Part shown: positions 1-23,897 of the stretch, in pieces
Layout of the letters: each line of letters starts with the position of its first letter
Numbering within the stretch: the stretch's first letter is position 1
DNA from: Planctomycetes bacterium B3_Pla
GTDB lineage: Bacteria; Planctomycetota; Phycisphaerae; Sedimentisphaerales; Anaerobacaceae
Assembly: GCA_005223045.1 (NCBI GenBank)
Contig: NJBM01000009.1
Location: 61,732 to 85,731 of the forward strand
DNA: 24,000 nucleotides
Direction: 5' to 3'
Notes under the pieces: model-generated
The model's database searches: none
Told to the model about the DNA's origin: nothing
Seen by the model: the letters and a program-made list of their open reading frames with translations, nothing else
Translations under genes and position numbers: made by a program

Positions 1-716
1 GTCCAGGGGCCTGTTGTGTCGAACTCGCGGTGCCATTTCAGGGTCCATAGCTCTTTGACGCCGATTGGCCGGCTGGACCAGTCCATGAAAACGCCGGTCA
101 CGAAACCATGGTGGCGGTTCATGCAGCAGGGCAGGGTGCTGTTCGTCCAGACATCCTCGAATTCGGGGGGACTGCCCATATTCGCCCGGCACGCCCACCA
201 ATAGACGCTGTCGGTCAGCATGGGGATGTTGCCCGCACCTTTGCCGGGAACGGTCTGCCAGTACCTGGCATCGGCATCGGGCCCCGGCACGGATTGGGCC
301 CATATATTCACGCCGTAGCTGCAATCGACCCGCACGCGGCTGGCCGTGCTGCGCAGGGACCAGGCGGCATAAGTGCTGCCGAGATGCCAATTGCTCGAGT
401 CGAGGAACTCGACGGCGGGTTTTTTCGCCGTAGGGCACATGAACAGGTCATTGGTATCGCGGTGGTGGGGCCAGAGATTTTGGAGCTGCTCCGGCCAGGG
501 TTCGGGCGAATCGAGCCAGCCGGGGAACTTTTCGTCGTTGTCGGCGGCGTAAATCGAGAAAATGAGGGTCCACTGCTTTAAGTTGGCCTGACAGCCGATA
601 GTCCTGGCCTGCTCTTTGACCCGCTGTAGCGCCGGCATCAAGATCGCCATCAGCAAAGCGATAATGGCGATCACTACCAGAAGCTCTATCAAGGTAAAGC
701 CGCTCCGTTTACTCAT
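1..716 (-). CDS. Prepilin-type N-terminal cleavage/methylation-domain protein of the DUF1559 / H-X9-DG class; 3' end runs off the window
   Basis: Absent from the ORF track because it stays open to the window edge. My reverse-strand translation from ATG 716..714 reads [49 protein letters not shown]... [10 protein letters not shown] is the classic pilin/pseudopilin processing motif. Near position 1 the same frame reads [39 protein letters not shown], a histidine-x9-Asp tail. There is no stop before position 1. Confidence 0.85.
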
Positions 717-923: not shown

Positions 924-2210
924 ATGAGAACAAAAGACTCAATAACGCGAAGGCAGTTCTTGAAAGGAACCGCGACCGTTGCGAGCGCGACGGTAGCTCT
1001 GCCGGCAATTGTCCCTGCGTCTGTCTTTGGCGCAGGCGCGCCGAGCAATCGAATCGTCATGGGGGCCATCGGCGTCGGCTCACAGGGGACCGGCGACATG
1101 CGGGGTTTCCTGAGCAAGTCGGAAGTGCAGATGGTGGCCGTCTGCGACGTGGACAAGAAACATCGCGACAGCGCCAAAAAGATAGTGGACCAGAAGTACG
1201 GCAACACCGACTGCAAGGCCTACCTCGACTTTCGTGAGTTGATCGGTCGCGGGGACCTCGACGCCGTGCAATTGGCGCTGCCCGATCAGTGGCACGCAAT
1301 CCCCTCTATAGAAGCGGCCCGGGCAGGCCTGGACATCCACGGGCAAAAACCGCTCGCCCGCTCCATCCGCGAAGGACGCGCAATATGCGACGCCGTCCAT
1401 CGTTACGGCAGAGTCTGGCAGACCGGAAGCCAGCAGCGTTCGGACTTCAAGTTCCGGCGGGCGTGTGAGCTGGTGCGAAACGGCCGCATCGGCAAAATCC
1501 TCAAGATAGAAGTGGGCCTGCCGACTGGCGGCGGCACAGACGTCAAACCCATCGTTGAAATTCCCGACGGTCTCGATTGGGACCTCTGGCTCGGCCCCGC
1601 CCCTTACGTTCCATACAGGGGCGTCGTCCACTGGAACTGGCGCTGGATCATGGACTACTCCGGCGGCCAGCTCACAGACTGGGCCGGGCACCATATTGAC
1701 ATCGCCCACTGGGGTATGGGCTGGGACCGCACGGGCCCGGTGGAAATCGAGGGCAAAGGTAACTACCCAAGCGAGGGACTCTATAACGTCGCCACCGAGT
1801 ACAAATTTACATGCAAGTACGCCGACGGCAGGGTAATGACGGTTGCCAACAACCAACAGCTCACGCAGGGCGCCAAATGGTACGGCGAGACCGGATGGAT
1901 ACACGTCAACCGCGGCGGGCTGCGGGCGTCGGATGAGAAGATTCTGAGAGAGGAAATCGGCCCCAACGAAACAAGGCTCTACGAGAGCAGGGACCACAAG
2001 CAAAACTTCCTCGATTGTGTCAAGAGCCGCAAGCTTACGATCTGTCCCGTTGAGGTGGGTCATCGCTCTATCAGCGTGGCTCTGCTCGGCGAGATTGCCA
2101 TGCTCACCGGACGCAAGATCAAATGGGACCCTGAAACAGAACAAATCGCGGGCGACGCCGAGGCAAGCGCACTGCTTGGGCGCTCCTATCGGGAGCCTTG
2201 GGTCCTGTGA
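924..2210 (+). CDS. Gfo/Idh/MocA-family NAD(P)-dependent oxidoreductase with twin-arginine (Tat) signal; ThuB-like or GH109-like
   Basis: ORF 861..2210. I place the start at ATG 924, which is preceded by AGGAG (914-918); the track start is an upstream TTG. The N-terminus MRTKDSITRRQFLKGTATVASATVALPA is a Tat signal. GAIGVGSQGTGDMRGF is a Rossmann GxGxxG motif. The size of about 428 aa is typical of the family. Confidence 0.85.
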   Translation: MRTKDSITRRQFLKGTATVASATVALPAIVPASVFGAGAPSNRIVMGAIGVGSQGTGDMRGFLSKSEVQMVAVCDVDKKHRDSAKKIVDQKYGNTDCKAYLDFRELIGRGDLDAVQLALPDQWHAIPSIEAARAGLDIHGQKPLARSIREGRAICDAVHRYGRVWQTGSQQRSDFKFRRACELVRNGRIGKILKIEVGLPTGGGTDVKPIVEIPDGLDWDLWLGPAPYVPYRGVVHWNWRWIMDYSGGQLTDWAGHHIDIAHWGMGWDRTGPVEIEGKGNYPSEGLYNVATEYKFTCKYADGRVMTVANNQQLTQGAKWYGETGWIHVNRGGLRASDEKILREEIGPNETRLYESRDHKQNFLDCVKSRKLTICPVEVGHRSISVALLGEIAMLTGRKIKWDPETEQIAGDAEASALLGRSYREPWVL

Positions 2211-2251
2211 GCGATACCGAGCAAACAAATCCGAATACAAGGAGCACCATA

Positions 2252-5200
2252 ATGAAAAGGTTCATAACGCTGTTACTCGTGTCCGGCATGGCTTGTATTT
2301 CGCTCTCAGGTGAAGCCTTTGGCGCCGATGAAAACTGGCAGAATCTCTTTGACGGTAAAACGCTCAAGGGCTGGGTCCAGCGCAACGGAAAGGCAAAGTA
2401 CGAAGTTGAAGACGGAATGATCGTCGGGACCACAGTTCTCAATACGCCGAACAGTTTTCTCTGCACAGAGAAGATGTACACCGACTTCATCCTGGAGTTG
2501 GAGTTTCTCGTGGAGCCGGACATGAATTCAGGTATTCAGGTCCGCAGCAACAGCTTCAAGCACTACAAGGACTACCGCGTCCACGGCTACCAGGTCGAAA
2601 TCGATCCGGGCACAGGGCCGTACAAGAAAAGCCCCAAGAACCTGCTGGCCGACGGCCGGCCCGCCCCGGAAACGGCCCCGCGATCCTGGTCTGGCGGTAT
2701 CTATGACGAAGCCCGTCGAGGTTGGCTCAACAACCTGACCGAGAAACCGGCAGCCCGGGCAGCTTTCAAGCAGTCCTTGGGACTCCCTACGGAGAAGCAG
2801 TGGAACCATTATCGCATCGAAGCTGTCGGCGACAGAATAGGGACATGGATCAACGGCATACCCGCAGCCGATTTGAAAGACGACATGACCTCGACAGGTT
2901 TCATTGCCCTTCAGGTTCACGGCTCCAAGAACGCCGGCAAGAAAATCAAGTGGCGCAACATCCGAATCCAGGACCTCACCGGCAAAGAGAAAAAGGAACC
3001 GCTGAAGGCCCTGATCGTTGACGGACAGAACAACCACAACTGGAAGGGCACCACGCCTGTTCTCAAGAGTCTGCTGGAGGAGACAGGCCTGTTCACGGTG
3101 GACGTGGCGACCTCGCCCGCTAAGAAACAGCCGATGGATTCATTCAAGCCGAATTTCGCAAAGTACAACGTAATCGTAGCCAACTACACCGGCGATGAGT
3201 GGCCCAAAGAAACGCAGGATGCACTGGTCGAGTATATGGAAAACGGCGGCGGGCTGGTTGTCTTCCACGCGGCGGACAACGCGTTCCCCAAGTGGAAGGA
3301 ATGGAACGAGATGATCGCCGTCGGTGGGTGGGGCGGCAGAAACGAGAAATCCGGCCCGAAGGTCCGCTACCGCGACGGCAAAGTCGTGCTCGACCCCTCT
3401 CCCGGCCGGGGCGGAAGCCACGGTCCACAGCACGAGTTTCAGATTGTCACCAGGGACCGTCATCATGGTATCACCGCGGGTCTGCCTGAAAAATGGATGC
3501 ATGCAAAGGACGAACTCTACAGCGAGCTGCGAGGCCCGGCTAAGAACATGAAGATTCTTGCAACCGCCTACGCCGACCCGGCAAAGAAAGGCACCGGCGA
3601 GCACGAGCCAATACTGTTCACCGTGCGCTACGGCAAAGGAAGGATCTTTCATACCGTCCTTGGGCACGGCCCCGAGCAGTTGCGCTGCATCGGATTCATC
3701 GTCACCTTCCAGCGCGGCGCCGAGTGGGCCGCCATGGGACGAGTAACCCAAAAGGACGTTCCCGAGGATTTCCCGACCGCCGACAAGGTCAGCCTGCACA
3801 CGGGTCTCTCGGCCGACTACGATGCTATCGAAAGCTACGACTTTGGTAAATCCCGCCGGGGTCTGGCTGCCATCGAAGAAGAAATTCGAAATGTCCCGCC
3901 CTCGTCGTTTCCGCATGTAGAAGAGAAATTACTCAAGGCCCTGGAATCTCCCAAAACAACCTTCGCCGGCAAACAATTCGTCTGCCGGATGCTGCGTCGC
4001 GTCGGCTCGGCCAAGTCTGTGCCCGCTCTGTCGCAGTTACTCGGCGATAAGAAGCTTTCCCACATGGCGCGGTTCGCGCTCCAGCACATGCCGGCGCCGC
4101 AAGCCGGAGTAGCTCTGCGTGCGGCATTGTCAAAGGTCAAGGGCGATCTTCAAATCGGCGTGATTGGATCTATCGGCCAACGGGGCGACCACCAGACAGT
4201 GCCGGCACTCGCAGAACTTGCGACCGGCAGCAATGCCCGTATCGCCCGTGTTGCAATTGACGCTTTGGGGAGAATCGGCGGCTCTCAGACGGCCGATGTA
4301 CTCGCAGAGATCAAAGTGCCGGCAGGGCTGAAGGCGGCGCGTGACAATGCCTACCTGATGTGTGCCGACTCAATGCTGGCCGAGGGACAGAAAAGCGAGG
4401 CCGTGGCGATCTATGGCGAAATGGCCTCGCCGGCCAACAGCACATGGATTCGGATCGCGGCGTACAGAGGCTTCGTCCAGGCCGGCAAAGACCAGGCAGT
4501 GCCTGTTGTCCTGGCCCTTCTCAAAGATAAAGACCTCGACCTGCAGCGCGCCGCGGGTAAGTTCATAACCGAAATGCCGGGCACGGCCGTCACCAAAGCT
4601 CTCGCCGAGCAATTCGGAAACCTCAGTGCCGACGCCCAGATTGTGCTGCTCAGTGCCCTTGAGGCGCGCGGCGATAAAACTGCTGCGCAGTACGTTGCAG
4701 AAGCTGTCACAAGAGGTAACGTGCCCGTTCGCCCTGCCGCGATAAAAGCGCTTGCGGTTCTCGGTGATGCTTCCAACGTCGAATTGCTCGCTACGGCGTC
4801 TGCCGCGGACGACGAAACGGGCAAGGCCGCGATGGACAGTTTAAGCCGGCTCTCCGGCCCGGGTGTTGCCGATGCGTTGGCGGCTGTCGCTGCGCGAAGT
4901 AGCGCCGAAGCGCCGGTCCGGGTTAATGTGATTGAGACACTTGTTAGTCGCGGCGACACCGAAGCGCTGCCAGTATTGTTCGACGTCGCAAAAGACGACA
5001 ACAAAGACATCCGTCAGGCTGCTTACAAGGCCTTGGGAGCATTATCCGGCCAGGATGAGCTTGCGAAAATGACATCAATACTCCTCACAGTCGAAAGCGG
5101 CGAGGACCGTTCCGGCATCGAACGGGCGATGATCGCGACTGTTACACGGCTCGAAGAACCGGACGCCTCTGACGTCATTTTTGGCCTGGGCAAGGCGGGT

Positions 5201-6034
5201 GACGCCGTCAAGCCTCATCTATTGGCCATACTCTCGCGCGTCGGGGGCCGGGAGGCTCTTGATGCTGCTCGCGGCCAACTACTCGTCGACAATGCTGATG
5301 TCAGAAAAGCCGCCATCCGTGCACTGGCCGATTGGCCCAGCGCCGAGCCACTGGCGGACCTGATGAAGATAGCCAAAACGAGCAAGGATTCGACCGAGCA
5401 TGTTCTGGCGCTTCGCGGTTACATCAAACTGCTGGGTATGCCGGCTAATCGCAGCGCGGCCGAGACCGTCGAATTGTTGACCGGTGCGATGGATACCGCA
5501 AGACGAGCCGACGAGAAAAAGGCCGTGCTTGCAGCCTTGTCCGGGTATCCCTGTGAACAGGGATTGGAGATCGCCGAGCGGTCGAAAAAGGATAGCGCCC
5601 TTTTGGCCGAAGCGGAACTGGCCTCAAAGCAGATCAAAGAGGCGCTGCTGAGCAAGAGCCTCAAAGCCACAGCTTCACGCAACAGCAACGCCGCACACCA
5701 AGCCCTGGACGGCAACCAGGCAAGCCGTTGGGATACCGGCAGGGTGATGAAGCCGGGGGATTGGTTCGTCCTGGATCTCGGCATCGAAAGCACGGTCAAA
5801 GGCTTGACTCTCGATACCAGGAATTCGTCAAATGACTACCCTCGCGGCTACGAAGTTTATGTCTCTTTTGACGGCGGCAGTTGGGGCAAATCCATTGTTA
5901 CCGGCAAGGGCGCCGAGCCAATCACAAAGATAAAATTCGACAAACCCGTGAAAACCAGATTCATCAAAATCCTCCAGACAGGCTCATCCGATAGTTGGCA
6001 CTGGTCAATCCATGAGCTGGCTGTCGATCTCTAA
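2252..6034 (+). CDS. Exported multidomain protein: signal peptide, DUF1080 (3-keto-disaccharide hydrolase-like lectin fold), ThuA-like domain, long HEAT/PBS-lyase-type repeat region, C-terminal F5/8 type C (discoidin, CBM32-like) domain
   Basis: ORF 2198..6034. Likely start is ATG 2252 after AAGGAG (2239-2244). Signal peptide: MKRFITLLLVSGMACISLSGEAFGA. DUF1080 hallmarks span about 2330-2980: WQNLFDGKTLKGW...GYQVEID...WNHYRIEAVGDRI...GFIALQVHG...IKWRNIRIQDL. The ThuA-like region spans about 3005-3745: KALIVDGQNNHNW...GGGLVVFHAADNAF...RYGKGRIFHTVLGHG...GAEWAA. An Ala/Leu-rich repeat region with repeated ALGRIGG / ALAVLGD / ALGALSG units spans about 3850-5600. The discoidin tail spans about 5660-6031: ALDGNQASRWDTG...WFVLDLG...YEVYVSFDGGSW...WSIHELAV. 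Confidence 0.85.
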   Translation: MKRFITLLLVSGMACISLSGEAFGADENWQNLFDGKTLKGWVQRNGKAKYEVEDGMIVGTTVLNTPNSFLCTEKMYTDFILELEFLVEPDMNSGIQVRSNSFKHYKDYRVHGYQVEIDPGTGPYKKSPKNLLADGRPAPETAPRSWSGGIYDEARRGWLNNLTEKPAARAAFKQSLGLPTEKQWNHYRIEAVGDRIGTWINGIPAADLKDDMTSTGFIALQVHGSKNAGKKIKWRNIRIQDLTGKEKKEPLKALIVDGQNNHNWKGTTPVLKSLLEETGLFTVDVATSPAKKQPMDSFKPNFAKYNVIVANYTGDEWPKETQDALVEYMENGGGLVVFHAADNAFPKWKEWNEMIAVGGWGGRNEKSGPKVRYRDGKVVLDPSPGRGGSHGPQHEFQIVTRDRHHGITAGLPEKWMHAKDELYSELRGPAKNMKILATAYADPAKKGTGEHEPILFTVRYGKGRIFHTVLGHGPEQLRCIGFIVTFQRGAEWAAMGRVTQKDVPEDFPTADKVSLHTGLSADYDAIESYDFGKSRRGLAAIEEEIRNVPPSSFPHVEEKLLKALESPKTTFAGKQFVCRMLRRVGSAKSVPALSQLLGDKKLSHMARFALQHMPAPQAGVALRAALSKVKGDLQIGVIGSIGQRGDHQTVPALAELATGSNARIARVAIDALGRIGGSQTADVLAEIKVPAGLKAARDNAYLMCADSMLAEGQKSEAVAIYGEMASPANSTWIRIAAYRGFVQAGKDQAVPVVLALLKDKDLDLQRAAGKFITEMPGTAVTKALAEQFGNLSADAQIVLLSALEARGDKTAAQYVAEAVTRGNVPVRPAAIKALAVLGDASNVELLATASAADDETGKAAMDSLSRLSGPGVADALAAVAARSSAEAPVRVNVIETLVSRGDTEALPVLFDVAKDDNKDIRQAAYKALGALSGQDELAKMTSILLTVESGEDRSGIERAMIATVTRLEEPDASDVIFGLGKAGDAVKPHLLAILSRVGGREALDAARGQLLVDNADVRKAAIRALADWPSAEPLADLMKIAKTSKDSTEHVLALRGYIKLLGMPANRSAAETVELLTGAMDTARRADEKKAVLAALSGYPCEQGLEIAERSKKDSALLAEAELASKQIKEALLSKSLKATASRNSNAAHQALDGNQASRWDTGRVMKPGDWFVLDLGIESTVKGLTLDTRNSSNDYPRGYEVYVSFDGGSWGKSIVTGKGAEPITKIKFDKPVKTRFIKILQTGSSDSWHWSIHELAVDL

Positions 6035-7431
6035 CCGGGGGCTCTGCCGTTTTTTTGCCGGGCGGCCCTGATGCTCCGCTTGTTGGCGACCACAAAGGCG
6101 ATGAGATTGCAGAATACGCCGATTGCCAGGCCTTCGATACCTGCCGGCGCTTTCAAGAGGTGGTTCCAAACCAGTGCTCCAATTGCGCCGGCTATTGTTC
6201 CGGCCATGAATCCTGCTCTGGTGACACCGAATCCCAGGAGCACTGCCGCCAGCGGAACGACTATGACCGGCGCCCAAAAGTCGTAGGCGTAAAATAAAAT
6301 GTCGAGGACAGAGTCAATCTTGATAGCGAAAACGACGGCGAGAATTCCTACAAAACAATTTGTGAGTTTGGCCAACAACAACTCTTGTTGCTCGGGCAGA
6401 GGATTCCTCCGTAAAGGTTTGACCAGGTCGTTAATGCCGCAGGTGGCTGCCGCGTTTAGAAAGGAGTCGGCCGAAGACATTACGACCGAGATTACTCCGG
6501 CGATGACGACGCCCCGAATCCCGGCAGGCAGCACCGTACGGATGACATAGGGCATAGACAGGTTGGGATCTAACTTCGGATCAAGCGTCAGAGCCACCAG
6601 TCCGATAGCGCCCGTAATCGCAAAGAACGGGATCGAAAAGAAACCGCTGAGCATCGTGCCGCGGGCCGTATGTCCGGCGTCCTTGCCGATGAACAGGCGT
6701 TGCACATAGGGGGGCACGAGTGTTTCGCCCAACAGAAACGTCAGGAACAGCGATACGAAAGCGCCGATTGTCATCGCCTCGCCTGGGATTGAGAAATGAG
6801 CCGGGGGCACGGCCGCCTTTATAGCGGAGAAGCCGCCCAGCTTAATTAAGCCAAAGACAAGCGCTGCCGGCAGCCCGACGGCAAGCACGCAGAATTGGAT
6901 GACGTCTGTCAGCACCACCGCTCTCATGCCGCCTACTGTTGAATAGGCGATAACGATGCCGCAGCCGATAAGGATGCCCCAGATCGGTTCGATGCCGAGA
7001 AATACGTTGAAGATGACTCCCATTGCTTTAACCTGGGCGCCAACAATCGCCGAACAAAGGAAGACCGAAAAGAACCCGGAGATAATTCTTGCCGCCTTTC
7101 CGTAGCCCCGCTCGATGATGTCACCCACTGAGATAAGGCCCGCGAAATTGTCCATCCTTGGCGCTATATATTTGGCGACGAGGATCTCTTTGAGGCTGAA
7201 TCCCCAAAGAGCAACGATGTTTACGATGCCGAAACGGAAGACTTTTTCTGCATTGCCTATTGAGAATCCTCCGCCGATGAACGATGCCGAAAGAGTGGCG
7301 AAAATCACTAACGAGCCGTACGATCTATGGGAGACAGAGAAGTCCCGCAGGCTTTTCATGCCCCTACCGCTCCACAATCCCACACAGAGGATCACGCTTA
7401 GGTAAAGGATGATTATCGCCGAATCCAACAT
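6031..7431 (-). CDS. Sodium:solute symporter (SSS) family transporter
   Basis: A 466-aa, highly hydrophobic ORF. The N-terminus MLDSAIIILYLSVILCVGLWSGRGMKSLRDFSVSHRSYGSLVIFATLSASFIGGGFSIG is typical of the SSS family. There are many predicted TM helices. Its ATG (7431..7429) overlaps the upstream gene's TAA by one base (TAATG). Confidence 0.85.
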   Translation of the reverse strand: MLDSAIIILYLSVILCVGLWSGRGMKSLRDFSVSHRSYGSLVIFATLSASFIGGGFSIGNAEKVFRFGIVNIVALWGFSLKEILVAKYIAPRMDNFAGLISVGDIIERGYGKAARIISGFFSVFLCSAIVGAQVKAMGVIFNVFLGIEPIWGILIGCGIVIAYSTVGGMRAVVLTDVIQFCVLAVGLPAALVFGLIKLGGFSAIKAAVPPAHFSIPGEAMTIGAFVSLFLTFLLGETLVPPYVQRLFIGKDAGHTARGTMLSGFFSIPFFAITGAIGLVALTLDPKLDPNLSMPYVIRTVLPAGIRGVVIAGVISVVMSSADSFLNAAATCGINDLVKPLRRNPLPEQQELLLAKLTNCFVGILAVVFAIKIDSVLDILFYAYDFWAPVIVVPLAAVLLGFGVTRAGFMAGTIAGAIGALVWNHLLKAPAGIEGLAIGVFCNLIAFVVANKRSIRAARQKNGRAPG

Positions 7432-8435
7432 TATCGAACCGCCGTCTCGGTGAAGAATGCAATCGGAGGAACGTCCCCCATAGTTTTCAGCCCGGGGGTG
7501 GCCTGCAGGACAGACCTTACTGCATTAAGAGTGATGGCGCATGTGGCGATGTCGCCATTGACACCTCCTGCGATTCTCGATTTAATTGCAGGCTCGCCGT
7601 CGATATGGACCTGGTCGTATGATTCGGGCTCGCCCACCGCGGCCCTGAAATTCAACGTGATGACTTCTCTATCGCCCACATAGCCCCTGCCGACCTGATG
7701 TACTCCACGCGCCATACCTTTGGAAATCGGCTTGTATCCGCTGTCGATTTGCGTCTCGGCAATTACCGGTTCGAGGGTCTCCTCGTTGCGATCGAGCTTC
7801 CAGCCGAGCCTGTCGGCGACAAAACTCACCGATTCTGGCAGACCTACGTGTCTCAGTGAGCCGTCATTCTTCCTGGCCTCGAATTCTTCCAGCGTCAGGC
7901 CGGCGCCTATTTTCTGCTGGAATGGAATTCGGCGGACAGAAGCATCCTGAACTCGCCAAACTTCTACTTTCTCGACGTTCTGGCACAGACCGGTCAGAAC
8001 TGTCGGAAGAAAGTCCATCAGGTATCCCGGATTGACACCTGTGCCAAGGCAGACGATGCCGTTAGCACGGCATATCTCGTCTATTCGCCCGGCGACTTCC
8101 GGATTCGTACTCCACGGGTAAGAGAGTTCTTCGCACGTGGAGACAATATTGAGCTTGGCCTCGGCAAGCTCCCGGACCTGGCTCTCGAGGGAGACAATGC
8201 TGCTGACGGTAGTAAGCAGCGCAGCCTCAACGGGCTTTCCCGCTGTTGCCTCGCCAGGGTTATCGCAAACGGTGACTCCGAGCGGATCGATGCCGCACAA
8301 TTCACCGAGATCTTTGCCCGCCTTGTCGGGATCGGTGTCGACAGCTCCGACGATGTTGAAACACCCTCGCTCTACTGCGTACCTGACGATCTTCTGTCCG
8401 AGCGGACCAATTCCTACGTGAACCGTATTTATCAT
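7431..8435 (-). CDS. DapB-like NAD(P)-binding dehydrogenase, resembling 2,4-diaminopentanoate dehydrogenase / native amine dehydrogenase family
   Basis: ORF 7431..8495. I place the start at ATG 8435 (MINTVHVGIGPLGQKIV...), preceded by AGGAAAGGA. The N-terminal GxGxxG Rossmann motif and the length of about 334 aa fit the dihydrodipicolinate-reductase-like amine dehydrogenase group. The subfamily call is from memory of that family, not from a search. Confidence 0.55.
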   Translation of the reverse strand: MINTVHVGIGPLGQKIVRYAVERGCFNIVGAVDTDPDKAGKDLGELCGIDPLGVTVCDNPGEATAGKPVEAALLTTVSSIVSLESQVRELAEAKLNIVSTCEELSYPWSTNPEVAGRIDEICRANGIVCLGTGVNPGYLMDFLPTVLTGLCQNVEKVEVWRVQDASVRRIPFQQKIGAGLTLEEFEARKNDGSLRHVGLPESVSFVADRLGWKLDRNEETLEPVIAETQIDSGYKPISKGMARGVHQVGRGYVGDREVITLNFRAAVGEPESYDQVHIDGEPAIKSRIAGGVNGDIATCAITLNAVRSVLQATPGLKTMGDVPPIAFFTETAVR

Positions 8436-8594
8436 TTGTGTAAGTCCTTTCCTGTTTTGAAACCGTATCGAGAACGTATAGTACCCGGCGGACATGGTCC
8501 GTGCAAGTCTCTTGCATTACTCCTTTGCAACAGTTACTATCGTACAGGATTTGTGTTTGTGGAAGTCCGGGGATCCTTATGAGTGTAGGCTAAA

Positions 8595-9971
8595 ATGAAG
8601 AGAAATGAGAGAGTTTGGGCCTTGTCCTTCTGCCTGTTGTTTGCAGCGGGCGGCACGGCTGCTTTGGCACAGGTTGGCAGCCGCGGGGGCGACAAGAAGG
8701 TAGTTTACAGGGAAATCGAGATATTTCCTCTTGTTAGTCAGCATGTGCACGGCTCGACAATCGTTGAGCTGCCGAACGGCGACTTGCTGGCGGCGTGGTT
8801 CCAGGGTTCCGGCGAGCGATGGGCCGACGACGTGGCGATCATGGGGGCGAGGCTCCGGGCCGGCAAAGAAAAGTGGACCAAGCCGTTTGTAATGGCGGAC
8901 GTCCCCGGGTTTCCTGACGTCAATCCAATTCTGTTCCTTGACCCACAGGATCGACTCTGGCTTATGTGGTACACGGTGATCGCCAACCAATGGGAGACAT
9001 CACTGCCCAAATACCGGATCAGCGAAAACTATATGACGCCGGACGGTCCGCCGGAATGGTCATGGCAGGATGTTTTGCACGTAAAACCGGGCGACCCGGC
9101 CGAACGCGGCATACAGCCCGGCGACCGCTTCGTCAAATCTGTCGAGAGACAAATCAGCGAGTATGCAGAGTACATTTCTAAGAACAGCAGGATGCCGGAG
9201 CAGGTTATGCTAAGCAGGATCGAGCGATGGAAAGAGGACCTGCTTGCCAAAGCTCGGGGGCAGAACATGATCCGGAAAGGCCGGCTTTACGATGCCGAAG
9301 GCCGATCCACTGAGAAGCAATTAGGTTATGCGTATTTTCGCCGGGTGGGCTGGCAGACCAAGAACAAAGCCGTGATCGTTGACAAAAACCGAATCATCGT
9401 GCCGCTTTACTCGGATGGATTCAGCTTTTCGCTGATGGCGATAACTGACAACGGCGGCAAAACCTGGCAGTTCAGCGAACCGCTCGTGGCACCCGGAAAT
9501 ATCCAGGCAAGTATTGCAAAAAAACGCGATGGGATGCTCGTTGCCTACATGCGGGACAACGGGCCTCCGCCCCAGCGTCTTCACGTGAGCACTTCCAAAG
9601 ACAAAGGTATGACGTGGAGCACGGTAAATGATTCCGAATTGCCCAATCCGGGATCGGGGGCCGATCTTGTCACCCTGAGAAACGGCCACTGGGTGCTGGC
9701 TTACAACGACACTGAAGACGGCAGACACAGCCTGGCTGTGTCGATTTCAACCGATGAGGGAAAGAGCTGGGAACATACCCGCCATCTCGAACTGGACACA
9801 CGCGACAGGGCGGTTGCAACCAGCAGCGCCTATCCGTCTATTATCCAGGGTCGTGACAAAACGTTGCACGTTGTTTACAGCTATCATCACAGGGACCGAG
9901 AGGGCGGTCCGCACAAGACCATCAAGTACGCGCAATTCAACGAAGCGTGGGTAATGCAAGGTGATAAATAA
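8595..9971 (+). CDS. Secreted BNR/Asp-box beta-propeller, sialidase-like (BNR_2 type)
   Basis: Signal peptide: MKRNERVWALSFCLLFAAGGTAALAQ. There are three Asp-box motifs (SxDxGxTW): TDNGGKTWQ, SKDKGMTWS, STDEGKSWE. HGSTIVELPNGDLLAAWFQGSGE is typical of BNR_2 sialidase-like proteins. I did not see a clear FRIP motif, so true sialidase activity is not established. Confidence 0.75.
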   Translation: MKRNERVWALSFCLLFAAGGTAALAQVGSRGGDKKVVYREIEIFPLVSQHVHGSTIVELPNGDLLAAWFQGSGERWADDVAIMGARLRAGKEKWTKPFVMADVPGFPDVNPILFLDPQDRLWLMWYTVIANQWETSLPKYRISENYMTPDGPPEWSWQDVLHVKPGDPAERGIQPGDRFVKSVERQISEYAEYISKNSRMPEQVMLSRIERWKEDLLAKARGQNMIRKGRLYDAEGRSTEKQLGYAYFRRVGWQTKNKAVIVDKNRIIVPLYSDGFSFSLMAITDNGGKTWQFSEPLVAPGNIQASIAKKRDGMLVAYMRDNGPPPQRLHVSTSKDKGMTWSTVNDSELPNPGSGADLVTLRNGHWVLAYNDTEDGRHSLAVSISTDEGKSWEHTRHLELDTRDRAVATSSAYPSIIQGRDKTLHVVYSYHHRDREGGPHKTIKYAQFNEAWVMQGDK

Positions 9972-9992
9972 TTGCAAAGAGGGAGCAGATTC

Positions 9993-11177
9993 ATGAGACG
10001 GCGGGAATTTATTAAGAACACTGCGGCTGGACTGGCGGCGTTTGGCTCGACCCGACCGAAGAGTGCCGGGGCGAAGGGCTCGAAATATAGAGTTGCGGTT
10101 ATCGGCAGGACCGGCAAAGGTAATTACGGTCACGGGCTGGATGTAGTCTGGAACGATGTAGAGCAGGCCGAAGTCGTAGCCGTTGCGGATGAAGATTCTA
10201 AAGGCCGTGCCGGAGCGGCCAAAAGGCTCAAAGCGCCGAAAGCTTATGCGGATTATCGCCGGATGCTTAAAGAGGAGCATCCGCAGATCGTCAGTGTCGC
10301 CCCCCGCTGGTTGGATTGTCATCGCGATATGGTGCTGGCCTGCGCTGAGTTTGACTGTCACGTATTTCTTGAAAAGCCTATGTGCCAGACACTCGATCAG
10401 GCCGACGAGATGATCGCCGCTCTTGAGAAGCGGAACCTGAAGCTCGCTATCGCCCACCAGACTCGTTACAGTCCGTCGCTGAGGCATGCGCAGCGAATCA
10501 TCGCCGATGGAGTATTAGGGGACATAGTCGAATTACGGGGCAGAGGCAAAGAAGATCGTCGGGGCGGCGGTGAGGACTTGATGGTGCTCGGCACGCACGT
10601 TATGGACCTGATGCGTCTGTTCGCGGGCGATCCACAATGGTGCTTTGCAAGTGTGAACGATGGCGGAAATCCTGTTACGAGCAATGAGGTGCGCGACGGA
10701 GCCGAAGGCATCGGCCCGCTTGCCGGGGATGAGATTCATGCGACGTATGCTTTTGGCGGTACGAAAATGGGCTATTTCTCGACACATCGCGCCCGGTATG
10801 GAGCGGCGAAACGCTTCGGGCTTCAGGTTCTTGGAACGAAGGGAATACTCACCATGACGACCGGTGTGCTGCCGGAGATTTGGTTCGTCGAAGATCCCTC
10901 CTGGCAGCCCGGGCGCAGCAAGGCCCAATGGAAGCGGGTAACCAGCGCCGGAATCGACAAGCCTGAAACGCTTGCTGATCGGGGCCACGCTCTCGGCAAT
11001 CGTCTGATAGCGCTCGACCTGATCCGGGCCATTGAGACGAACACACAGCCCAAGGGCAGCGCTTACGACGGTCGGGCCGCTCTGGAGATGATATTGGCCG
11101 TGTATGAATCGCACCGGCTCGGTGCGCCTGCAAGGCTGCCGCTCAAGAACCGCCGGCATCCTTTGAGTATGCTGTGA
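9993..11177 (+). CDS. Gfo/Idh/MocA-family oxidoreductase with Tat signal (second paralogue class)
   Basis: ORF 9972..11177. Likely start is ATG 9993 after GAGGGAG. The N-terminus MRRREFIKNTAAGLAAFGS is a Tat signal. VAVIGRTGKGNYGHG is the nucleotide-binding turn. It lies 21 nt downstream of the BNR gene. Confidence 0.85.
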   Translation: MRRREFIKNTAAGLAAFGSTRPKSAGAKGSKYRVAVIGRTGKGNYGHGLDVVWNDVEQAEVVAVADEDSKGRAGAAKRLKAPKAYADYRRMLKEEHPQIVSVAPRWLDCHRDMVLACAEFDCHVFLEKPMCQTLDQADEMIAALEKRNLKLAIAHQTRYSPSLRHAQRIIADGVLGDIVELRGRGKEDRRGGGEDLMVLGTHVMDLMRLFAGDPQWCFASVNDGGNPVTSNEVRDGAEGIGPLAGDEIHATYAFGGTKMGYFSTHRARYGAAKRFGLQVLGTKGILTMTTGVLPEIWFVEDPSWQPGRSKAQWKRVTSAGIDKPETLADRGHALGNRLIALDLIRAIETNTQPKGSAYDGRAALEMILAVYESHRLGAPARLPLKNRRHPLSML

Positions 11178-21534: not shown

Positions 21535-23865
21535 TCATTTGCCCTGCTTCGTCATTGACAGCGGGGCCGCCCTGGGTGTGCTGCCCCACTGTTTGTTTGG
21601 ATTTGGGCCCATTTGCAGAACTAATCTGCCGCCATCGGCAAGCTGGCGATGGTAAAACCACGGCTTGTTCAAAGCCTTGCCGTCAAGCGTCGCCGACTGG
21701 ATGAATACATTGTTCTTTGAGTTGTTCTTAGCTTCGATTACAAACTGCTCGCCCTTGTAGTATCTGCCGTCCAGGTAAATAGTTATCTTGTCGAATATAG
21801 GGCCGGAGACCTCGTAAGTTGGCTCGGTCGCTGCGCCACCGTCCATCTCGAACAGCCCCATGGCGCTCATCACATACCAGGCTCCCATCTGGCCCTGGTC
21901 CTCGTCGCCCGGGTAGCCGTCAATCGGACCGGTCCCGTAGTAGTTTTCCGCTATCTGGCGGACCCACTTCTGGGTCAGCCAGGGAGCGTCCGAGAAGTTG
22001 AAAAGCCAAGCCGACTGCATGTTCGGCTGATTCCCGTGGTTGATTGGAAAATCCGCAAAACGATCGTTAGTTGCATTGAAGTTGCTTCCTCGAGATTTCT
22101 CCAGGCCATCCCTCAATCTTCTGTTGAATTCATCGCGCCCGAGCAAATCCACAAGACCCTTTACATCGTGGGGGGCAAACCATGTGAACTGCCACGAATT
22201 GCCCTCCACAAAGCCTTTACCGGAGAACGGAGAAAAGTCCTTGACCCACGAGCCATCCCGGTGCCTCTGGCGCATATATCCTACCGAAGGATCGAACACA
22301 TTCTGGTAGTTGGCCGCTCTCCTCATAAAATGCTCGGCGTCGTCTTGCTTGCCTAAGGCTTTCGCCATCTGAGCTACGCACCAGTCATCGTATGCATATT
22401 CCAACGTATTGGATACGGGGCCTTTCTCCACGGGCACATATCCAAGCTCCATATAAGATTTCAACTGGCGATTACCAACGTAACCGCCGCCTTCGTGAGG
22501 TCTGCCGGGCGTGGTTTGAATGTGCCGTATTGCCTTGTAAGCTTTCTCGACGTCGAAATTGCGGATGCCCTTTTGATAAGCGCTTACAATCAGAGCAATC
22601 TCGTGCGATGCAACCATGATGCTGGAGTATTCGATGCCGGCGGGACCTTTCGCCAGCCATCCGCCCCGATCATATATCTCCAGCAGGGACTCGACCCATT
22701 TGTTGGCGATGTCAGGCGTGACCAATGTCCACAACTGATTGAGGTTCCAGAAGGTGTTCCAGAAAGCGTCACAGCCGTAAACAGGCGAATCCGGATCTTC
22801 CAGTTGCTGCACGTTTTCATACATGTCCACGTACTTTCCGTTTACGTCGCTCAGGATCGTCCGCGCACAATAAGAACGGTACAGATTCGTGTAGAACTTT
22901 ACTCTGTCGGCTTCGGTGCCTCCTTCGATTCTTATCTTGCTCAACAGATCGTTCCACGTGCTGCGGGCCTGATTCCTGACCGCGTCGAAGTCCCACCCGA
23001 ATCGGGACATCTCGGTTTGCAGATTCAGCCGGGCCTGTTCGATACTCACCAGCGAAATGCCGGCCTTTATCTTGATAAGTTCGTCTTTTGCTGTGGAATA
23101 ACCCACAAAAGCGCCGATATCTCCCTGCCCGGAAATCTTATCTACGTCCCGGTGGATCGTCTCGCCCGTCCAACCTCCGAACGACTCAAAAGGCTTGCTG
23201 AACTTTACTACGAAGTGGATGGTGTACTCATTCCATTTTGCGTACCTGCCGGCCTGCTGTTTGGAGTAGCCCACAATTTCAGTGTCACTTATCTTGTCGA
23301 TGCGAGCATCGTGAACTTCGAAGCCATACTCTGTGGGGAATTTGAGGTCTAAGAGGATATAGGCTTCGTCTGCTTTGGGAAACGTATATCGCTGGAAGCC
23401 TGCTCTGGTCGTCGAAGTCAGTTCGGCGCGGATACCGTAATCAGCGAGAGTCACAGCGTAATATCCCGGCGATGCAACTTCCGTATCGTGGCTGAATCTC
23501 GATCTGTAGCCTCCGTCCGGATCGTTTTCCGCTCCCGGGATTGTCTTGAGTTTGCCCGTAACAGGCATGGTCAAAAGGCCGGCCATCGTCCACGAGTGAA
23601 GATGGCTAAAGCCGGCGATGTTTTCAATCGTATATTCATACCCGGCTTTCCAGCTTTGCTTTTGATTATCGGGGCTGAGCTTTACCATACTAAAGGGTGT
23701 GCTCGGGCCGGGATATAACATCCACCGTGAGCTGGCTGTCCCAAGCAACGTATCCACCCAATCGACAGGCTGTTTCTTTTCAGCCGCGAGAAGGCTGGAC
23801 GAATTCCCTGCTGTCAACGAAAGCATCAATACGACAAACAATAAAGACGCATATCTTCCAGACAT
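21535..23865 (-). CDS. Secreted glycoside hydrolase family 92 (exo-alpha-mannosidase)
   Basis: ORF 21535..23943. The start is moved to ATG 23865 (MSGRYASLLFVVLMLSLTAGNSSS, a signal peptide) after GGAAGGAGAGAGAA, because the longer ORF overlaps the stop of the upstream paralogue. GH92 signatures are present: GYEYTIENIAGFSHLH, GGWLAKGP, LEYAYDDWCVAQMA, EGNSWQFTWFAPHD, GNQPNMQSAWLFN, YPGDEDQGQMGAWYVMSAMGLF. Confidence 0.9.
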   Translation of the reverse strand: MSGRYASLLFVVLMLSLTAGNSSSLLAAEKKQPVDWVDTLLGTASSRWMLYPGPSTPFSMVKLSPDNQKQSWKAGYEYTIENIAGFSHLHSWTMAGLLTMPVTGKLKTIPGAENDPDGGYRSRFSHDTEVASPGYYAVTLADYGIRAELTSTTRAGFQRYTFPKADEAYILLDLKFPTEYGFEVHDARIDKISDTEIVGYSKQQAGRYAKWNEYTIHFVVKFSKPFESFGGWTGETIHRDVDKISGQGDIGAFVGYSTAKDELIKIKAGISLVSIEQARLNLQTEMSRFGWDFDAVRNQARSTWNDLLSKIRIEGGTEADRVKFYTNLYRSYCARTILSDVNGKYVDMYENVQQLEDPDSPVYGCDAFWNTFWNLNQLWTLVTPDIANKWVESLLEIYDRGGWLAKGPAGIEYSSIMVASHEIALIVSAYQKGIRNFDVEKAYKAIRHIQTTPGRPHEGGGYVGNRQLKSYMELGYVPVEKGPVSNTLEYAYDDWCVAQMAKALGKQDDAEHFMRRAANYQNVFDPSVGYMRQRHRDGSWVKDFSPFSGKGFVEGNSWQFTWFAPHDVKGLVDLLGRDEFNRRLRDGLEKSRGSNFNATNDRFADFPINHGNQPNMQSAWLFNFSDAPWLTQKWVRQIAENYYGTGPIDGYPGDEDQGQMGAWYVMSAMGLFEMDGGAATEPTYEVSGPIFDKITIYLDGRYYKGEQFVIEAKNNSKNNVFIQSATLDGKALNKPWFYHRQLADGGRLVLQMGPNPNKQWGSTPRAAPLSMTKQGK
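21551..21646 (-). repeat. Copy A of the conserved 3'-coding segment shared by the tandem GH92 genes
   Basis: An ungapped by-eye alignment with 23905..24000 gives 76 of 96 identical bases. Confidence 0.8.
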
Positions 23866-23897
23866 TTCTCTCTCCTTCCAAATTATATTTACTGACT

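What the first reader, a model, noticed from the sequence alone, without database searches (positions are those of the whole stretch)
924..6034. ThuB-like Tat oxidoreductase followed by one exported protein fusing DUF1080, ThuA, HEAT repeats and a discoidin domain
Seen: a Tat-signal Gfo/Idh/MocA gene ends 41 nt before a 1261-aa Sec-signal protein. That protein contains, in order, a DUF1080 domain, a ThuA-like domain, about 600 aa of HEAT-type repeats and an F5/8 type C carbohydrate-binding-like domain. Established: in rhizobia and Agrobacterium, ThuA together with the Gfo/Idh/MocA protein ThuB converts trehalose to 3-keto-trehalose. The DUF1080 family (Pfam PF06439) has been renamed 3-keto-disaccharide hydrolase after genetic work in Bacteroides thetaiotaomicron. 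Inference: all three activities of an oxidise-then-cleave glycoside route are gathered in two adjacent exported genes: the dehydrogenase, its ThuA partner, and a 3-keto-glycoside hydrolase. Two of them are covalently fused and tethered to a glycan-binding module and a scaffold-like HEAT array. This looks like a periplasmic or cell-surface oxidative glycan-cleavage machine. Its fusion architecture and substrate are, to my knowledge, uncharacterised.
Basis: partly seen in the sequence, partly recalled or inferred. Interest (0 to 1): 0.62.

Follow-up and report, generated by a model that had tools for sequence, protein, structure and literature searches.

The report
Exported sugar dehydrogenase with scaffold partner
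Two adjacent genes in an uncultured planctomycete encode an exported sugar-oxidising enzyme and a very large exported partner protein; the pairing is widespread but has never been studied, and it most likely cuts sugar linkages by the "oxidise first, then eliminate" route described in gut bacteria in 2024.

Summary
Gene A (924-2210, 428 aa) is a Tat-signal Gfo/Idh/MocA oxidoreductase. After 41 nt comes gene B (2252-6034, 1260 aa, Sec signal), with DUF1080, ThuA, about 600 aa of HEAT solenoid and an F5/8 type C domain.

The fusion is not unique. More than 100 90%-identity protein clusters from Phycisphaerae-type Planctomycetota share the full architecture. In every full-length locus with upstream DNA, a gene A orthologue (69-87% identical) sits directly upstream.

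- **Conserved core:** It is the Tat-Gfo gene followed by a HEAT-array protein, usually with ThuA. DUF1080 and the sugar-binding domain are accessories.
- **Own genome:** 6 of 7 HEAT-array genes directly follow a Gfo gene. One island carries the same parts unfused, plus a TIM-barrel lyase-like gene.
- **Interpretation:** partly supported. DUF1080 enzymes are now known as 3-keto-glycoside lyase/hydratases, not hydrolases. Rhizobial ThuA and ThuB are cytoplasmic and are not orthologues.
- **Open points:** ThuA's chemistry and the substrate remain unknown.

This scan has already noted the same kind of module in other genomes. I rate it a new variant of a known kind.

The parts
924..2210 (+). Gene A (GfoA): a Tat-exported Gfo/Idh/MocA oxidoreductase of 428 aa. 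Key residues are the twin-arginine R9-R10, the NAD motif G50-x-G-x-x-G55, K142 (in Q-K-P) and D252...H256.
   Evidence: ORF and translation come, and Pfam/NCBIfam matches. The alignment to the AL3 structure 8tdf keeps the AL3 catalytic Asp248/His252 equivalents and the NAD-contacting Gln. It lacks the AL3 Arg192/Trp195 sugar-binding loop. Orthologues are 80-100% identical in the 120 best clusters.
2211..2251 (+). A 41-nt intergenic spacer carrying the ribosome-binding site AGGAG (2240-2244). The two genes are probably co-transcribed.
   Evidence: The sequence is. No terminator-like site lies in the gap. The same tight spacing occurs in relatives.
2252..6034 (+). Gene B: a 1260-aa Sec-exported multidomain protein with the order DUF1080, ThuA, HEAT solenoid, F5/8 type C.
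   Evidence: Full-length homologues are 51-94% identical in more than 100 clusters.
2252..2323 (+). Sec (type I) signal peptide, residues 1-24. There is no lipobox.
   Evidence: Read directly from the translation. The Cys at position 14 is not conserved in the homologue consensus.
2336..2971 (+). DUF1080 / 3keto-disac_hyd domain (residues 29-240), a predicted 3-keto-glycoside 1,2-lyase/hydratase. Its motifs are N92-S-G, Y113-Q-V-E116, Y151 and L-Q221-V-H223.
   Evidence: Pfam gives E 6.4e-42. The closest structure is 4jqt (2e-60). A profile of this domain plus own-genome paralogues reaches BT2 (8tda/8tde) at 3e-31. The usual E-x-Q motif is replaced by Q-x-E in this subfamily.
3005..3730 (+). 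ThuA-like domain (residues 252-493, glutamine-amidotransferase-like fold). Its chemistry is unknown. Invariant His, Asp and Glu residues include H262, H339, H390, H405, H417, D420, E421, E452 and H472.
   Evidence: Pfam gives 108.8 bits. The match to PDB 4e5v has E 6.5e-93, and Foldseek gives TM 0.88 at 52% identity. It is not orthologous to rhizobial ThuA.
3794..4096 (+). Conserved junction, the N-terminal cap of the HEAT module (residues ~515-615; YDFGKSR...FVCRML...SHMARFALQ). I propose it as the docking element for the Gfo partner.
   Evidence: It is strongly invariant among homologues. It is the only HEAT part kept in the Bacteroidales ThuA proteins that follow GfoA orthologues and in a 281-aa own-genome paralogue. 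It also opens every HEAT-only paralogue. The docking role itself is an inference.
3857..5650 (+). HEAT-type alpha-solenoid of about 20 repeats (residues ~536-1133), acting as a scaffold or adaptor.
   Evidence: Pfam HEAT_2 gives E 9.4e-35. In the AlphaFold2 model, helices 288-885 of the model have pLDDT mostly above 90. Foldseek finds only scaffold proteins such as importin beta, CAND1 and the PP2A A subunit. Six further paralogous arrays occur in the own genome.
5666..6010 (+). F5/8 type C (CBM32-like) beta-sandwich, a putative glycan-binding module (residues 1139-1253).
   Evidence: Pfam gives 66.5 bits, and NedA-like 45.8 bits. PDB matches are the galactose-binding domains of sialidase, galactose oxidase and hexosaminidase. 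An Armatimonadota relative has DUF5077 in its place, and some paralogues have no such domain.

Best explanation
Genes A and B form an autonomous two-gene operon for a periplasmic enzyme assembly of the 3-keto (oxidation, elimination, hydration) type of glycoside processing.

**Gene A.** GfoA is folded with a tightly bound NAD(P) and exported by Tat. It oxidises a ring hydroxyl of a glycoside, most likely at C3.

**Gene B.** It is exported by Sec and acts as the dehydrogenase's dedicated adaptor:
- The N-terminal part of its HEAT solenoid, next to ThuA, docks the dehydrogenase.
- The DUF1080 domain carries out the 1,2-elimination that breaks the glycosidic bond, then hydrates the resulting 2-hydroxyglucal.
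- The CBM32-like domain holds the assembly on a glycan.

**Why a scaffold.** Keeping the lyase/hydratase beside the dehydrogenase would return the short-lived 3-keto-sugar to the enzyme. That would re-oxidise the buried NADH, so the cycle needs no outside electron acceptor. This fits an organism in which I found no cytochrome partner.

**What is shown and what is inferred.** The domain identities, export signals, conserved gene pairing and recurrent Gfo/HEAT/ThuA/DUF1080 linkage are shown. The site of oxidation, the physical docking, the channelling and the substrate are inferred. ThuA's role is unknown. It could be a second catalytic step on the keto-sugar or a structural partner of the dehydrogenase.
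For: **Domain identities**
- All domain matches are far above threshold.
- GfoA's nearest solved relatives are AL3/BT3 glycoside 3-dehydrogenases. The catalytic Lys, Asp and His and the NAD-contacting Gln are retained.
- The DUF1080 profile reaches the characterised BT2 (8tda/8tde) at 3e-31. The N-S-G, Y and Q-x-H motifs are kept.

**Published biochemistry**
- The roles of AL3 (tightly bound NAD, recycled by reducing 3-ketoglucose) and of DUF1080 (lyase and hydratase) come from 10.1101/2024.03.25.586180.

**Synteny**
- A GfoA orthologue sits directly upstream in 11 of 11 full-length relatives that have upstream DNA: L001, L002, L008, L011, L081, L082 and L091-L095.
- The same holds for variants lacking DUF1080 (L005, L006, L083/84) and for loci in an Armatimonadota MAG (L010), an unassigned bacterial MAG (L012), Phycisphaerae (L013) and seven Bacteroidales/Prolixibacteraceae loci.
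- Flanking genes are otherwise unrelated.

**Own genome**
- Six of 7 HEAT-array genes lie directly downstream of a GfoA-family gene. With about 69 such Gfo genes among roughly 5000 genes, chance expectation is below 1e-9 (my estimate).
- Unfused versions place DUF1080 directly after ThuA-HEAT (own genome C21; L013). In C21 an AL1-like TIM-barrel gene sits directly upstream.
- Two more DUF1080-ThuA fusions exist in the genome.

**Other**
- No terminator lies between A and B.
- The HEAT region models as a long solenoid resembling protein-protein scaffolds.
- No NapC-type cytochrome partner was found in the own genome.
Against: - No activity has been measured for any member of this module.
- GfoA scores only 149 bits against the BT_2158 equivalog model (cut-off 750), and only over its N-terminal half.
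- GfoA lacks the AL3 Arg192/Trp195 loop that binds glucose O5/O6. The substrate, and even the oxidised position, may therefore differ.
- The DUF1080 domain has Q-x-E where most family members have E-x-Q.
- DUF1080 is absent, with none nearby, in many relatives (L006, L083, L010 and the Bacteroidales loci). Cleavage cannot be the function of the conserved core unless ThuA or another protein supplies it.
- GfoA is unusually conserved (80-88% across many MAGs) and sits in variable neighbourhoods. That pattern looks more like a housekeeping role than a substrate-specific glycan-degradation locus.
- In Bacteroidales the orthologous pair sits beside a NapC-FGE tetrahaem cytochrome and GT2/GT39-like genes. 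This hints at net oxidation or envelope-glycan work.
Confidence: 0.5

Rival explanations
1. The pair is a net-oxidising periplasmic sugar or polyol dehydrogenase, not a bond-cleaving system. GfoA together with ThuA makes a keto-sugar, as ThuAB is reported to do. The reducing equivalents go to an external acceptor or the respiratory chain. DUF1080 and the CBM are lineage-specific add-ons.
For: - The invariant core is Gfo plus ThuA/HEAT, without DUF1080.
- In Bacteroidales MAGs the orthologous pair lies directly after a membrane-anchored NapC/NirT tetrahaem cytochrome fused to an FGE domain.
- Liu et al. class ThuAB among the 3-ketoglycoside dehydrogenases.
Against: - No cytochrome gene lies next to the pair in this window or in the Phycisphaerae relatives. 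The NapC part of the Bacteroidales cytochrome has no homologue in the own genome.
- B has no CxxCH motif, and no redox cofactor is known for ThuA.
- DUF1080 is linked to the module repeatedly, both fused and unfused.
Confidence: 0.22
2. The module modifies or remodels the cell's own envelope glycans or glycoproteins, for example by oxidising a sugar on a periplasmic glycoconjugate. It does not feed on external glycans.
For: - Sequence conservation is very high and the genomic context is variable and not PUL-like.
- In Bacteroidales the pair is followed by a GT2 and a GT39/PMT-like TPR glycosyltransferase.
- In L082 it is followed by rml-type nucleotide-sugar genes and glycosyltransferases.
Against: - Those neighbours are not conserved across lineages.
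- The closest characterised relatives of both catalytic domains are catabolic.
- The own genome carries about 60 Tat-Gfo, 39 DUF1080 and 14 ThuA domains, many clustered with each other or with TIM-barrel lyase-like genes; in relatives the pair lies next to sulfatase and glycoside-hydrolase genes. That pattern is typical of glycan foraging.
Confidence: 0.1
3. The adjacency is incidental. In a genome crowded with these families, a Gfo gene simply happens to lie before an unrelated multidomain protein.
For: The own genome has about 60-70 Gfo genes of this type, 39 DUF1080 domains and 14 ThuA domains.
Against: - The pairing has the same order, strand and spacing in all full-length relatives with upstream DNA.
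- It also holds in loci from at least three phyla and in 6 of 7 paralogous HEAT loci of the same genome.
Confidence: 0.02

Closest known systems
Oxidative (non-Koshland) glycoside-cleavage clusters BT2156-BT2160 of Bacteroides thetaiotaomicron and AL1-AL5 of Alistipes (Liu et al. 2021, PMC8121099; Nasseri et al., bioRxiv 10.1101/2024.03.25.586180)
   Same: Both have a Tat-exported Gfo/Idh/MocA dehydrogenase with the GFO_IDH_MocA_C2 domain and the same catalytic Asp/His. Both have an exported DUF1080 protein and act in the periplasm.
   Different: - Here DUF1080 is fused to ThuA, a HEAT solenoid of about 600 aa and a CBM32-like domain. None of these occurs in the BT or AL clusters.
- This locus has no TIM-barrel lyase (AL1), no cytosolic reductase (AL4) and no regulator.
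- GfoA lacks the AL3 glucose-binding Arg/Trp loop and falls far below the BT_2158 equivalog cut-off.
ThuA/ThuB of Sinorhizobium meliloti and Agrobacterium (thuEFGKAB operon; formation of 3-keto-disaccharides, as cited in PMC8121099)
   Same: Both pair a PF06283 (ThuA) protein with a Gfo/Idh/MocA oxidoreductase encoded side by side.
   Different: - The rhizobial proteins have no signal peptides and follow an ABC importer, so they are cytoplasmic.
- The gene order is thuA then thuB.
- Sequence similarity to the ThuA domain here is marginal (28% over 71 aa, E 0.027). ThuB matches GfoA only over the Rossmann fold.
- There is no HEAT, DUF1080 or CBM domain.
PARMER_02418 (PDB 4e5v), a stand-alone ThuA-like protein of Parabacteroides merdae, and its relatives
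   Same: It is 52% identical to the ThuA domain here and has the same fold (TM 0.88).
   Different: - It is a single-domain protein of about 280-300 aa with no described function.
- Its close relatives in Bryobacterales, Pirellulales and Verrucomicrobiota mostly have no GfoA orthologue nearby.
Tat-Gfo plus secreted HEAT-repeat protein two-gene module
   Same: Both have the same gene order and the same family of HEAT array with a conserved N-terminal cap. I tested this independently in the own genome, where 6 of 7 arrays follow a Gfo gene.
   Different: This member carries the richest decoration: DUF1080 and ThuA at the N-terminus and an F5/8C domain at the C-terminus.

Membership tests
AL3/BT2158-type glycoside 3-dehydrogenase | Homology to the solved AL3/BT3 enzymes, plus a Tat signal and the GFO_IDH_MocA_C2 domain | tested here: met
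   8tdf matches at E 1.6e-31 and 8tdh at 5.2e-29. PF19051 scores 100 bits. The twin-arginine motif TRRQFLK is present.
AL3/BT2158-type glycoside 3-dehydrogenase | Reaches the NCBIfam equivalog cut-off (BT_2158_fam, 750 bits) | tested here: not met
   The score is 149.4 bits and covers profile positions 1-257 of 487 only.
AL3/BT2158-type glycoside 3-dehydrogenase | Catalytic and NAD residues: AL3 Gln161, Asp248, His252 and the Lys of E-K-P | tested here: met
   The aligned residues are Q in TGSQQ, D252, H256 and K142. The motif reads Q-K-P instead of E-K-P.
AL3/BT2158-type glycoside 3-dehydrogenase | Glucose-binding residues AL3 Arg192 and Trp195 | tested here: not met
   Both fall in insertions of AL3 that are absent from GfoA, whose loop reads GLPTGGG. 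Tyr349 lies outside the aligned region.
DUF1080 3-keto-glycoside lyase/hydratase (AL2/BT2157) | Membership of PF06439 and relatedness to the solved BT2 | tested here: met
   Pfam gives 144 bits, E 6.4e-42. The profile A2 matches 8tda/8tde at 3.2e-31.
DUF1080 3-keto-glycoside lyase/hydratase (AL2/BT2157) | Conserved channel residues reported for BT2: Glu/Asp103, Asn134, Glu164, Gln166, Tyr190, Lys245, Gln273 and His275 | tested here: inconclusive
   By motif, N92 (NSG), Y151, Q221 and H223 are kept. The E-x-Q motif reads Q114-x-E116. I could not obtain a residue-by-residue alignment to BT2, so Lys245 and Glu103 are unassigned.
BT/AL oxidative glycoside-cleavage cluster | A TIM-barrel 3-keto-beta-glucoside lyase (AL1/BT2156) in the same cluster | tested here: not met
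   No AP_endonuc_2 gene is among the window's ORFs. One lies directly upstream of the paralogous module at own-genome C21:85602-86609.
BT/AL oxidative glycoside-cleavage cluster | Demonstrated oxidation, elimination and hydration chemistry | not testable with these tools
   This needs enzyme assays.
Rhizobial ThuAB | ThuA domain (PF06283) present | tested here: met
   It scores 108.8 bits against a cut-off of 33.4.
Rhizobial ThuAB | Orthology to S. meliloti ThuA and ThuB | tested here: not met
   For ThuA, BLASTP gives E 0.027 and 28% over 71 aa. ThuB aligns only over 159 aa of the Rossmann fold at 26%. tblastn found no rhizobial plasmid hit at 1e-5.
Rhizobial ThuAB | Cytoplasmic location downstream of an ABC importer, with gene order thuA then thuB | tested here: not met
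   Here both proteins carry export signals and the Gfo gene comes first.
Tat-Gfo / HEAT-array two-gene module (uncharacterised) | A HEAT-array gene directly downstream of a GfoA-family gene on the same strand, with the conserved N-terminal cap motif | tested here: met
   This locus fits, as do 5 of 6 other HEAT-array loci in the own genome and more than 25 fetched loci.
CBM32 / F5_F8_type_C | Domain model match | tested here: met
   PF00754 scores 66.5 bits against 28.2, and PF22633 scores 45.8 bits. The model shows a beta-sandwich. The ligand cannot be tested here.

The most novel reading that the evidence does not exclude
The HEAT array is a dedicated periplasmic adaptor family for Tat-exported NAD-dehydrogenases. 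It assembles a 'keto-sugar metabolon' of dehydrogenase, lyase/hydratase, ThuA and a glycan-binding module, and it channels the labile 3-keto intermediate back to the enzyme to recycle its buried cofactor. Within this assembly the ThuA domain would be a new catalytic activity on keto-sugars. In lineages that lack DUF1080 and the TIM-barrel lyase, for example, it could be the missing lyase, hydratase or isomerase. That would finally give the large ThuA family (PF06283) a function.
Probability: 0.3. Interest if true: 0.72.

Novelty: new variant of a known kind. Interest (0 to 1): 0.5.

Why it matters
The oxidise-eliminate-hydrate route of glycoside cleavage was described only in 2024, in gut Bacteroidota. 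This locus suggests that environmental Planctomycetota build the same chemistry into a scaffolded, partly fused assembly.

- **Partner proteins.** The dehydrogenase of that route has an obligatory partner, a HEAT array that usually carries ThuA. The published systems lack it, and I found no paper describing it.
- **Testable questions.** Two become approachable. One is what ThuA domains do. They are widespread, have solved structures and have no known activity. The other is how a periplasmic enzyme with a non-exchangeable NAD is kept turning over.
- **Annotation.** Public records name these proteins 'family 16 glycoside hydrolase', which is probably wrong.

Tried and rejected
1. **Orthology to rhizobial ThuAB.** I fetched thuA and thuB from S. 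meliloti pSymB. Similarity is marginal and both lack signal peptides, so I rejected orthology.
2. **Aligning the DUF1080 domain to BT2.** The single-sequence PDB search found only 4jqt and weak hits. A profile reached BT2. It ranked too low for its residue alignment to be printed, so the residue mapping rests on motifs only.
3. **A cytochrome electron acceptor in the own genome.** Only FGE-domain paralogues matched the Bacteroidales NapC-FGE cytochrome. The haem part had no match.
4. **Conserved neighbours beyond the pair.** Flanking genes differ in every lineage examined. The symporter/DapB-like/BNR/Gfo block downstream in the window is therefore not part of the unit.
5. **Gfo-ThuA or Gfo-HEAT fusion proteins.** None appeared among the 120 best GfoA homologues.
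6. **Promoter and terminator scan.** It found no promoter-like site and no terminator in the gap, which says little.
7. **Literature on ThuA function.** No paper in the held library treats ThuA together with DUF1080 or 3-keto-glycoside terms. ThuA appears only as a structural neighbour or in gene lists.
8. **Fold search of the HEAT region.** It returned only generic eukaryotic scaffold proteins and no enzyme.
9. **Stand-alone 4e5v-like ThuA genes as a guide to function.** Their neighbourhoods are inconsistent.

Full report
**Observation**

Gene A runs from ATG 924 to TGA 2210 and encodes 428 aa. It has a good ribosome-binding site and the twin-arginine motif SITRRQFLK. Pfam finds the Gfo/Idh/MocA Rossmann domain and the GFO_IDH_MocA_C2 C-terminal domain (E 1.9e-28). 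The NCBIfam Tat-signal domain model is passed, and the Pfam one is just missed.

Gene B starts 41 nt later. AGGAG lies 7 nt upstream, and the protein opens with a Sec-type signal peptide. Pfam places these domains:
- DUF1080/3keto-disac_hyd at residues 29-240 (E 6.4e-42)
- ThuA at residues 252-493 (E 6e-31)
- five HEAT_2 stretches (E 9.4e-35)
- F5_F8_type_C at residues 1139-1253 (E 3.2e-18)

No terminator-like hairpin lies in the gap. An AlphaFold2 model of residues 249-1260, built from an 11-sequence alignment, has mean pLDDT 87.7. It shows a ThuA alpha/beta domain, an uninterrupted solenoid of about 40 helices and a terminal beta-sandwich. Foldseek matches the first part to the ThuA-like structure 4e5v (TM 0.88, 52% identity). 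It matches the solenoid only to protein-protein scaffolds such as importin beta, CAND1 and the PP2A A subunit.

**How common is the architecture?**

A search of about 5.8 billion proteins returned more than 100 90%-identity clusters. They have the same four Pfam families, full-length coverage and 51-94% identity. All named sources are Planctomycetota, Phycisphaerae or Sedimentisphaerales MAGs, and the names given are 'family 16 glycoside hydrolase' or 'DUF1080 domain-containing protein'. Shorter variants lack DUF1080 (about 1035-1043 aa) or lack ThuA (about 961-969 aa).

Among relatives of the window's genome, full-length orthologues (59-79% identical) occur in all four other genomes of the genus and in one other genus of the family. 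A variant without DUF1080 occurs in a third genus.

**Is the Gfo gene always there?**

Yes, wherever it can be checked. A gene A orthologue (69-87% identical) lies directly upstream, on the same strand, in all 11 full-length relatives with enough upstream DNA. These are L001, L002, L008, L011, L081, L082 and L091-L095.

The same holds for ThuA-HEAT proteins without DUF1080 (L005, L006, L083/L084), for an Armatimonadota locus whose C-terminal domain is DUF5077 instead of F5/8C (L010), and for L012 and L013. It also holds for seven Bacteroidales/Prolixibacteraceae loci. There the partner is only ThuA plus the first ~100-130 residues of the HEAT module.

Genes beyond the pair differ completely between loci. 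They include sulfatases, GH2, GH43, pilus/T2SS genes, rml genes and a helicase. The unit is therefore the pair, not the neighbouring symporter/DapB-like/BNR/Gfo block of this window.

Three contigs carry a DUF1080-ThuA reading frame without HEAT or an upstream Gfo gene (L007, L009, L014). L009 encodes a clean 494-aa protein. I did not resolve whether these are real truncated paralogues or assembly chimeras.

Gene A is more conserved than gene B. Its 120 best clusters are all 80-100% identical and 381-453 aa long (most of them 427-429 aa), and none is fused to another domain. Within B the order of conservation is ThuA, then DUF1080, then F5/8C, then HEAT.

**The real core**

The own genome (5.98 Mb in 47 contigs, 92.8% complete) is crowded with these families. 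It has 14 ThuA domains, 39 DUF1080 domains and about 60-70 Tat-type Gfo genes. Chance adjacency therefore had to be excluded, and two results exclude it.

The first result concerns the HEAT arrays. The genome has seven HEAT arrays homologous to B's, at 29-41% identity. Six of them lie immediately downstream of a GfoA-family gene on the same strand: C17, C21, C10, C29, C20 and C1. The seventh follows a Tat-like FG-GAP propeller. With about 1.4% of genes being such Gfo genes, I estimate the chance expectation at below 1e-9.

The second result is an island on contig C21 that carries the same parts unfused. Its gene order is:
- an AP_endonuc_2 TIM barrel, the family of the AL1/BT2156 lyase
- a Tat-Gfo gene
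- ThuA-HEAT
- the rest of the HEAT array
- DUF1080
- four more Tat-Gfo genes
- a double-DUF1080 protein

. A Phycisphaerae MAG (L013) likewise has Gfo, then ThuA-HEAT, then HEAT, then DUF1080. Two further DUF1080-ThuA fusions exist in the own genome.

So Gfo plus HEAT array is the invariant pair. ThuA is its most frequent N-terminal domain. DUF1080 and a C-terminal beta-sandwich are recurrent, optional additions.

The N-terminal cap of the HEAT module (B residues ~515-615) is strongly invariant. It is the only HEAT part kept in the Bacteroidales proteins and in a 281-aa own-genome paralogue. I infer that it is the contact with the dehydrogenase.

**Comparison with what is known**

*Gene A.* Its closest solved relatives are 8tdf and 8tdh (E 1.6e-31 and 5.2e-29). 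These are the dehydrogenases of the 'alternative broad-specificity pathway' of Nasseri et al. (bioRxiv 10.1101/2024.03.25.586180). That paper shows the following:
- The Tat-exported AL3/BT3 carries a tightly bound NAD and oxidises glycosides at C3.
- The NAD is probably recycled by reducing the 3-ketoglucose product, whose active form is lost by isomerisation.

.

In the alignment to AL3, gene A keeps the equivalents of Gln161, Asp248 and His252 and the catalytic Lys. These are Q in TGSQQ, D252, H256 and K142. It lacks the loop carrying Arg192 and Trp195, which bind glucose. It also scores far below the BT_2158 equivalog cut-off (149 against 750 bits). It is therefore a relative with the same catalytic machinery but a different substrate pocket.

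*The DUF1080 domain.* It is a clear PF06439 member. A profile of it with own-genome paralogues reaches BT2 (8tda/8tde) at 3e-31. The N-S-G, Tyr and Q-x-H motifs are kept, while the usual E-x-Q motif reads Q-x-E.

I fetched S. meliloti thuA and thuB from pSymB. Both lack signal peptides and follow the ABC-transporter ATPase gene. ThuA matches the domain here at 28% over 71 aa (E 0.027), and ThuB matches gene A only over the Rossmann fold. What is shared is the family-level principle that a ThuA protein pairs with a Gfo oxidoreductase.

No paper in the held library links ThuA with DUF1080 or 3-keto-glycoside terms, and none describes a HEAT partner.

**Most likely mechanism**

The steps below are inference unless a call is cited.
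1. GfoA is exported by Tat with its bound NAD(P) and oxidises a glycoside hydroxyl, probably at C3.
2. B is exported by Sec and docks GfoA on the cap of its solenoid, next to ThuA.
3. The DUF1080 domain eliminates the aglycone or the next sugar from the 3-keto-glycoside and hydrates the product.
4. The resulting 3-keto-sugar is reduced by the neighbouring GfoA, which closes a redox-neutral cycle.
5. The CBM32-like domain keeps the assembly on a glycan.

Holding the lyase/hydratase next to a dehydrogenase whose cofactor cannot exchange gives a rationale for the scaffold. This genome also has no homologue of the cytochrome partner seen in Bacteroidales. ThuA's role remains open. Its many invariant His, Asp and Glu residues suggest a metal or catalytic site.

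**Rival explanations**

- **Net-oxidising dehydrogenase.** This is the main rival. It is supported by the DUF1080-free core and by a NapC-FGE tetrahaem cytochrome next to the Bacteroidales orthologues.
- **Envelope-glycan modification.** It is supported by the GT2 and GT39-like neighbours in Bacteroidales and by the unusually high conservation.
- **Coincidental adjacency.** The synteny data exclude it.

**Earlier notes of this scan**

After reaching the synteny and paralogue results, I read earlier notes of this scan. Other windows, from Hydrogenedentes, Lentisphaerota, Verrucomicrobia and Planctomycetota, were already reported to carry Tat-Gfo plus HEAT or ThuA-HEAT modules with the same closest known system. 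My results agree with those notes. They add the four-domain Phycisphaerae form, the unfused C21 island and the minimal-cap argument.

**Verdict**

- The feature is a new variant of a known kind: the 3-keto glycoside-cleavage pathway in a scaffolded and partly fused form.
- ThuA's role and the substrate are the real unknowns.

Noticed in passing
own genome C21:70496-86609 (outside the window): A minus-strand island of exported enzymes. The gene order is: AP_endonuc_2 TIM barrel, Tat-Gfo (431 aa), ThuA-HEAT (550 aa), an in-frame TAA, HEAT (458 aa), DUF1080 (367 aa), four Tat-Gfo genes, a double-DUF1080 protein (724 aa) and another Gfo. It is an unfused counterpart of the finding.
   Followed up: partly
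L019:2675-11192 (Bacteroidales MAG); the Gfo-to-glycosyltransferase part is the same in L020, L038 and L041: A conserved cluster with this gene order: a NapC/NirT tetrahaem cytochrome fused to an FGE-sulfatase domain (seen in L019 only; the equivalent ORFs of L020, L038 and L041 were not scanned), a PF02894-type Gfo, a GfoA orthologue (53-59% identical), ThuA plus a short HEAT cap (about 400 aa), GT2, and a GT39/PMT-like TPR protein. It suggests electron transfer or envelope-glycan work in that lineage.
   Followed up: partly
L015-L080 (many loci): Stand-alone 4e5v-like ThuA proteins (about 285-300 aa) are 59-67% identical to the domain here. They occur across Bryobacterales (Acidobacteriota), Pirellulales, Verrucomicrobiota and others, usually with no Gfo orthologue nearby. 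That is unusually high cross-phylum conservation for a protein of unknown function.
   Followed up: partly
L081:7187-9951: In one relative, two tandem GfoA paralogues (78% and 80% identical to gene A) precede the B orthologue.
   Followed up: no
L009:6701-8185; also L007 and L014: These contigs carry a DUF1080-ThuA protein (494 aa in L009) that is 72-85% identical to B but ends before the HEAT array and has no Gfo gene upstream. They may be truncated paralogues or assembly chimeras.
   Followed up: partly
own genome C44:230288-234469: The one HEAT-array gene not preceded by a Gfo gene follows a Tat-like FG-GAP beta-propeller. It is itself followed by a prepilin-type N-methyl protein. A prepilin-type gene also lies divergently upstream of gene A in the window (3-716, minus strand).
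   Followed up: no
window 6031-11177: Convergent with gene B lies a pair made of an SSF symporter and a DapB-like/DAP_DH_C dehydrogenase. Next come a BNR_2 sialidase-like protein and a second Gfo/Idh/MocA gene of the PF02894 type. This block is not conserved next to the A-B pair in relatives.
   Followed up: partly
window 21535-23943 (minus strand): A GH92 alpha-mannosidase-family gene (Pfam E 3e-158) lies upstream of a MEDS-GAF-PAS histidine kinase and NarL-type regulator pair.
   Followed up: no
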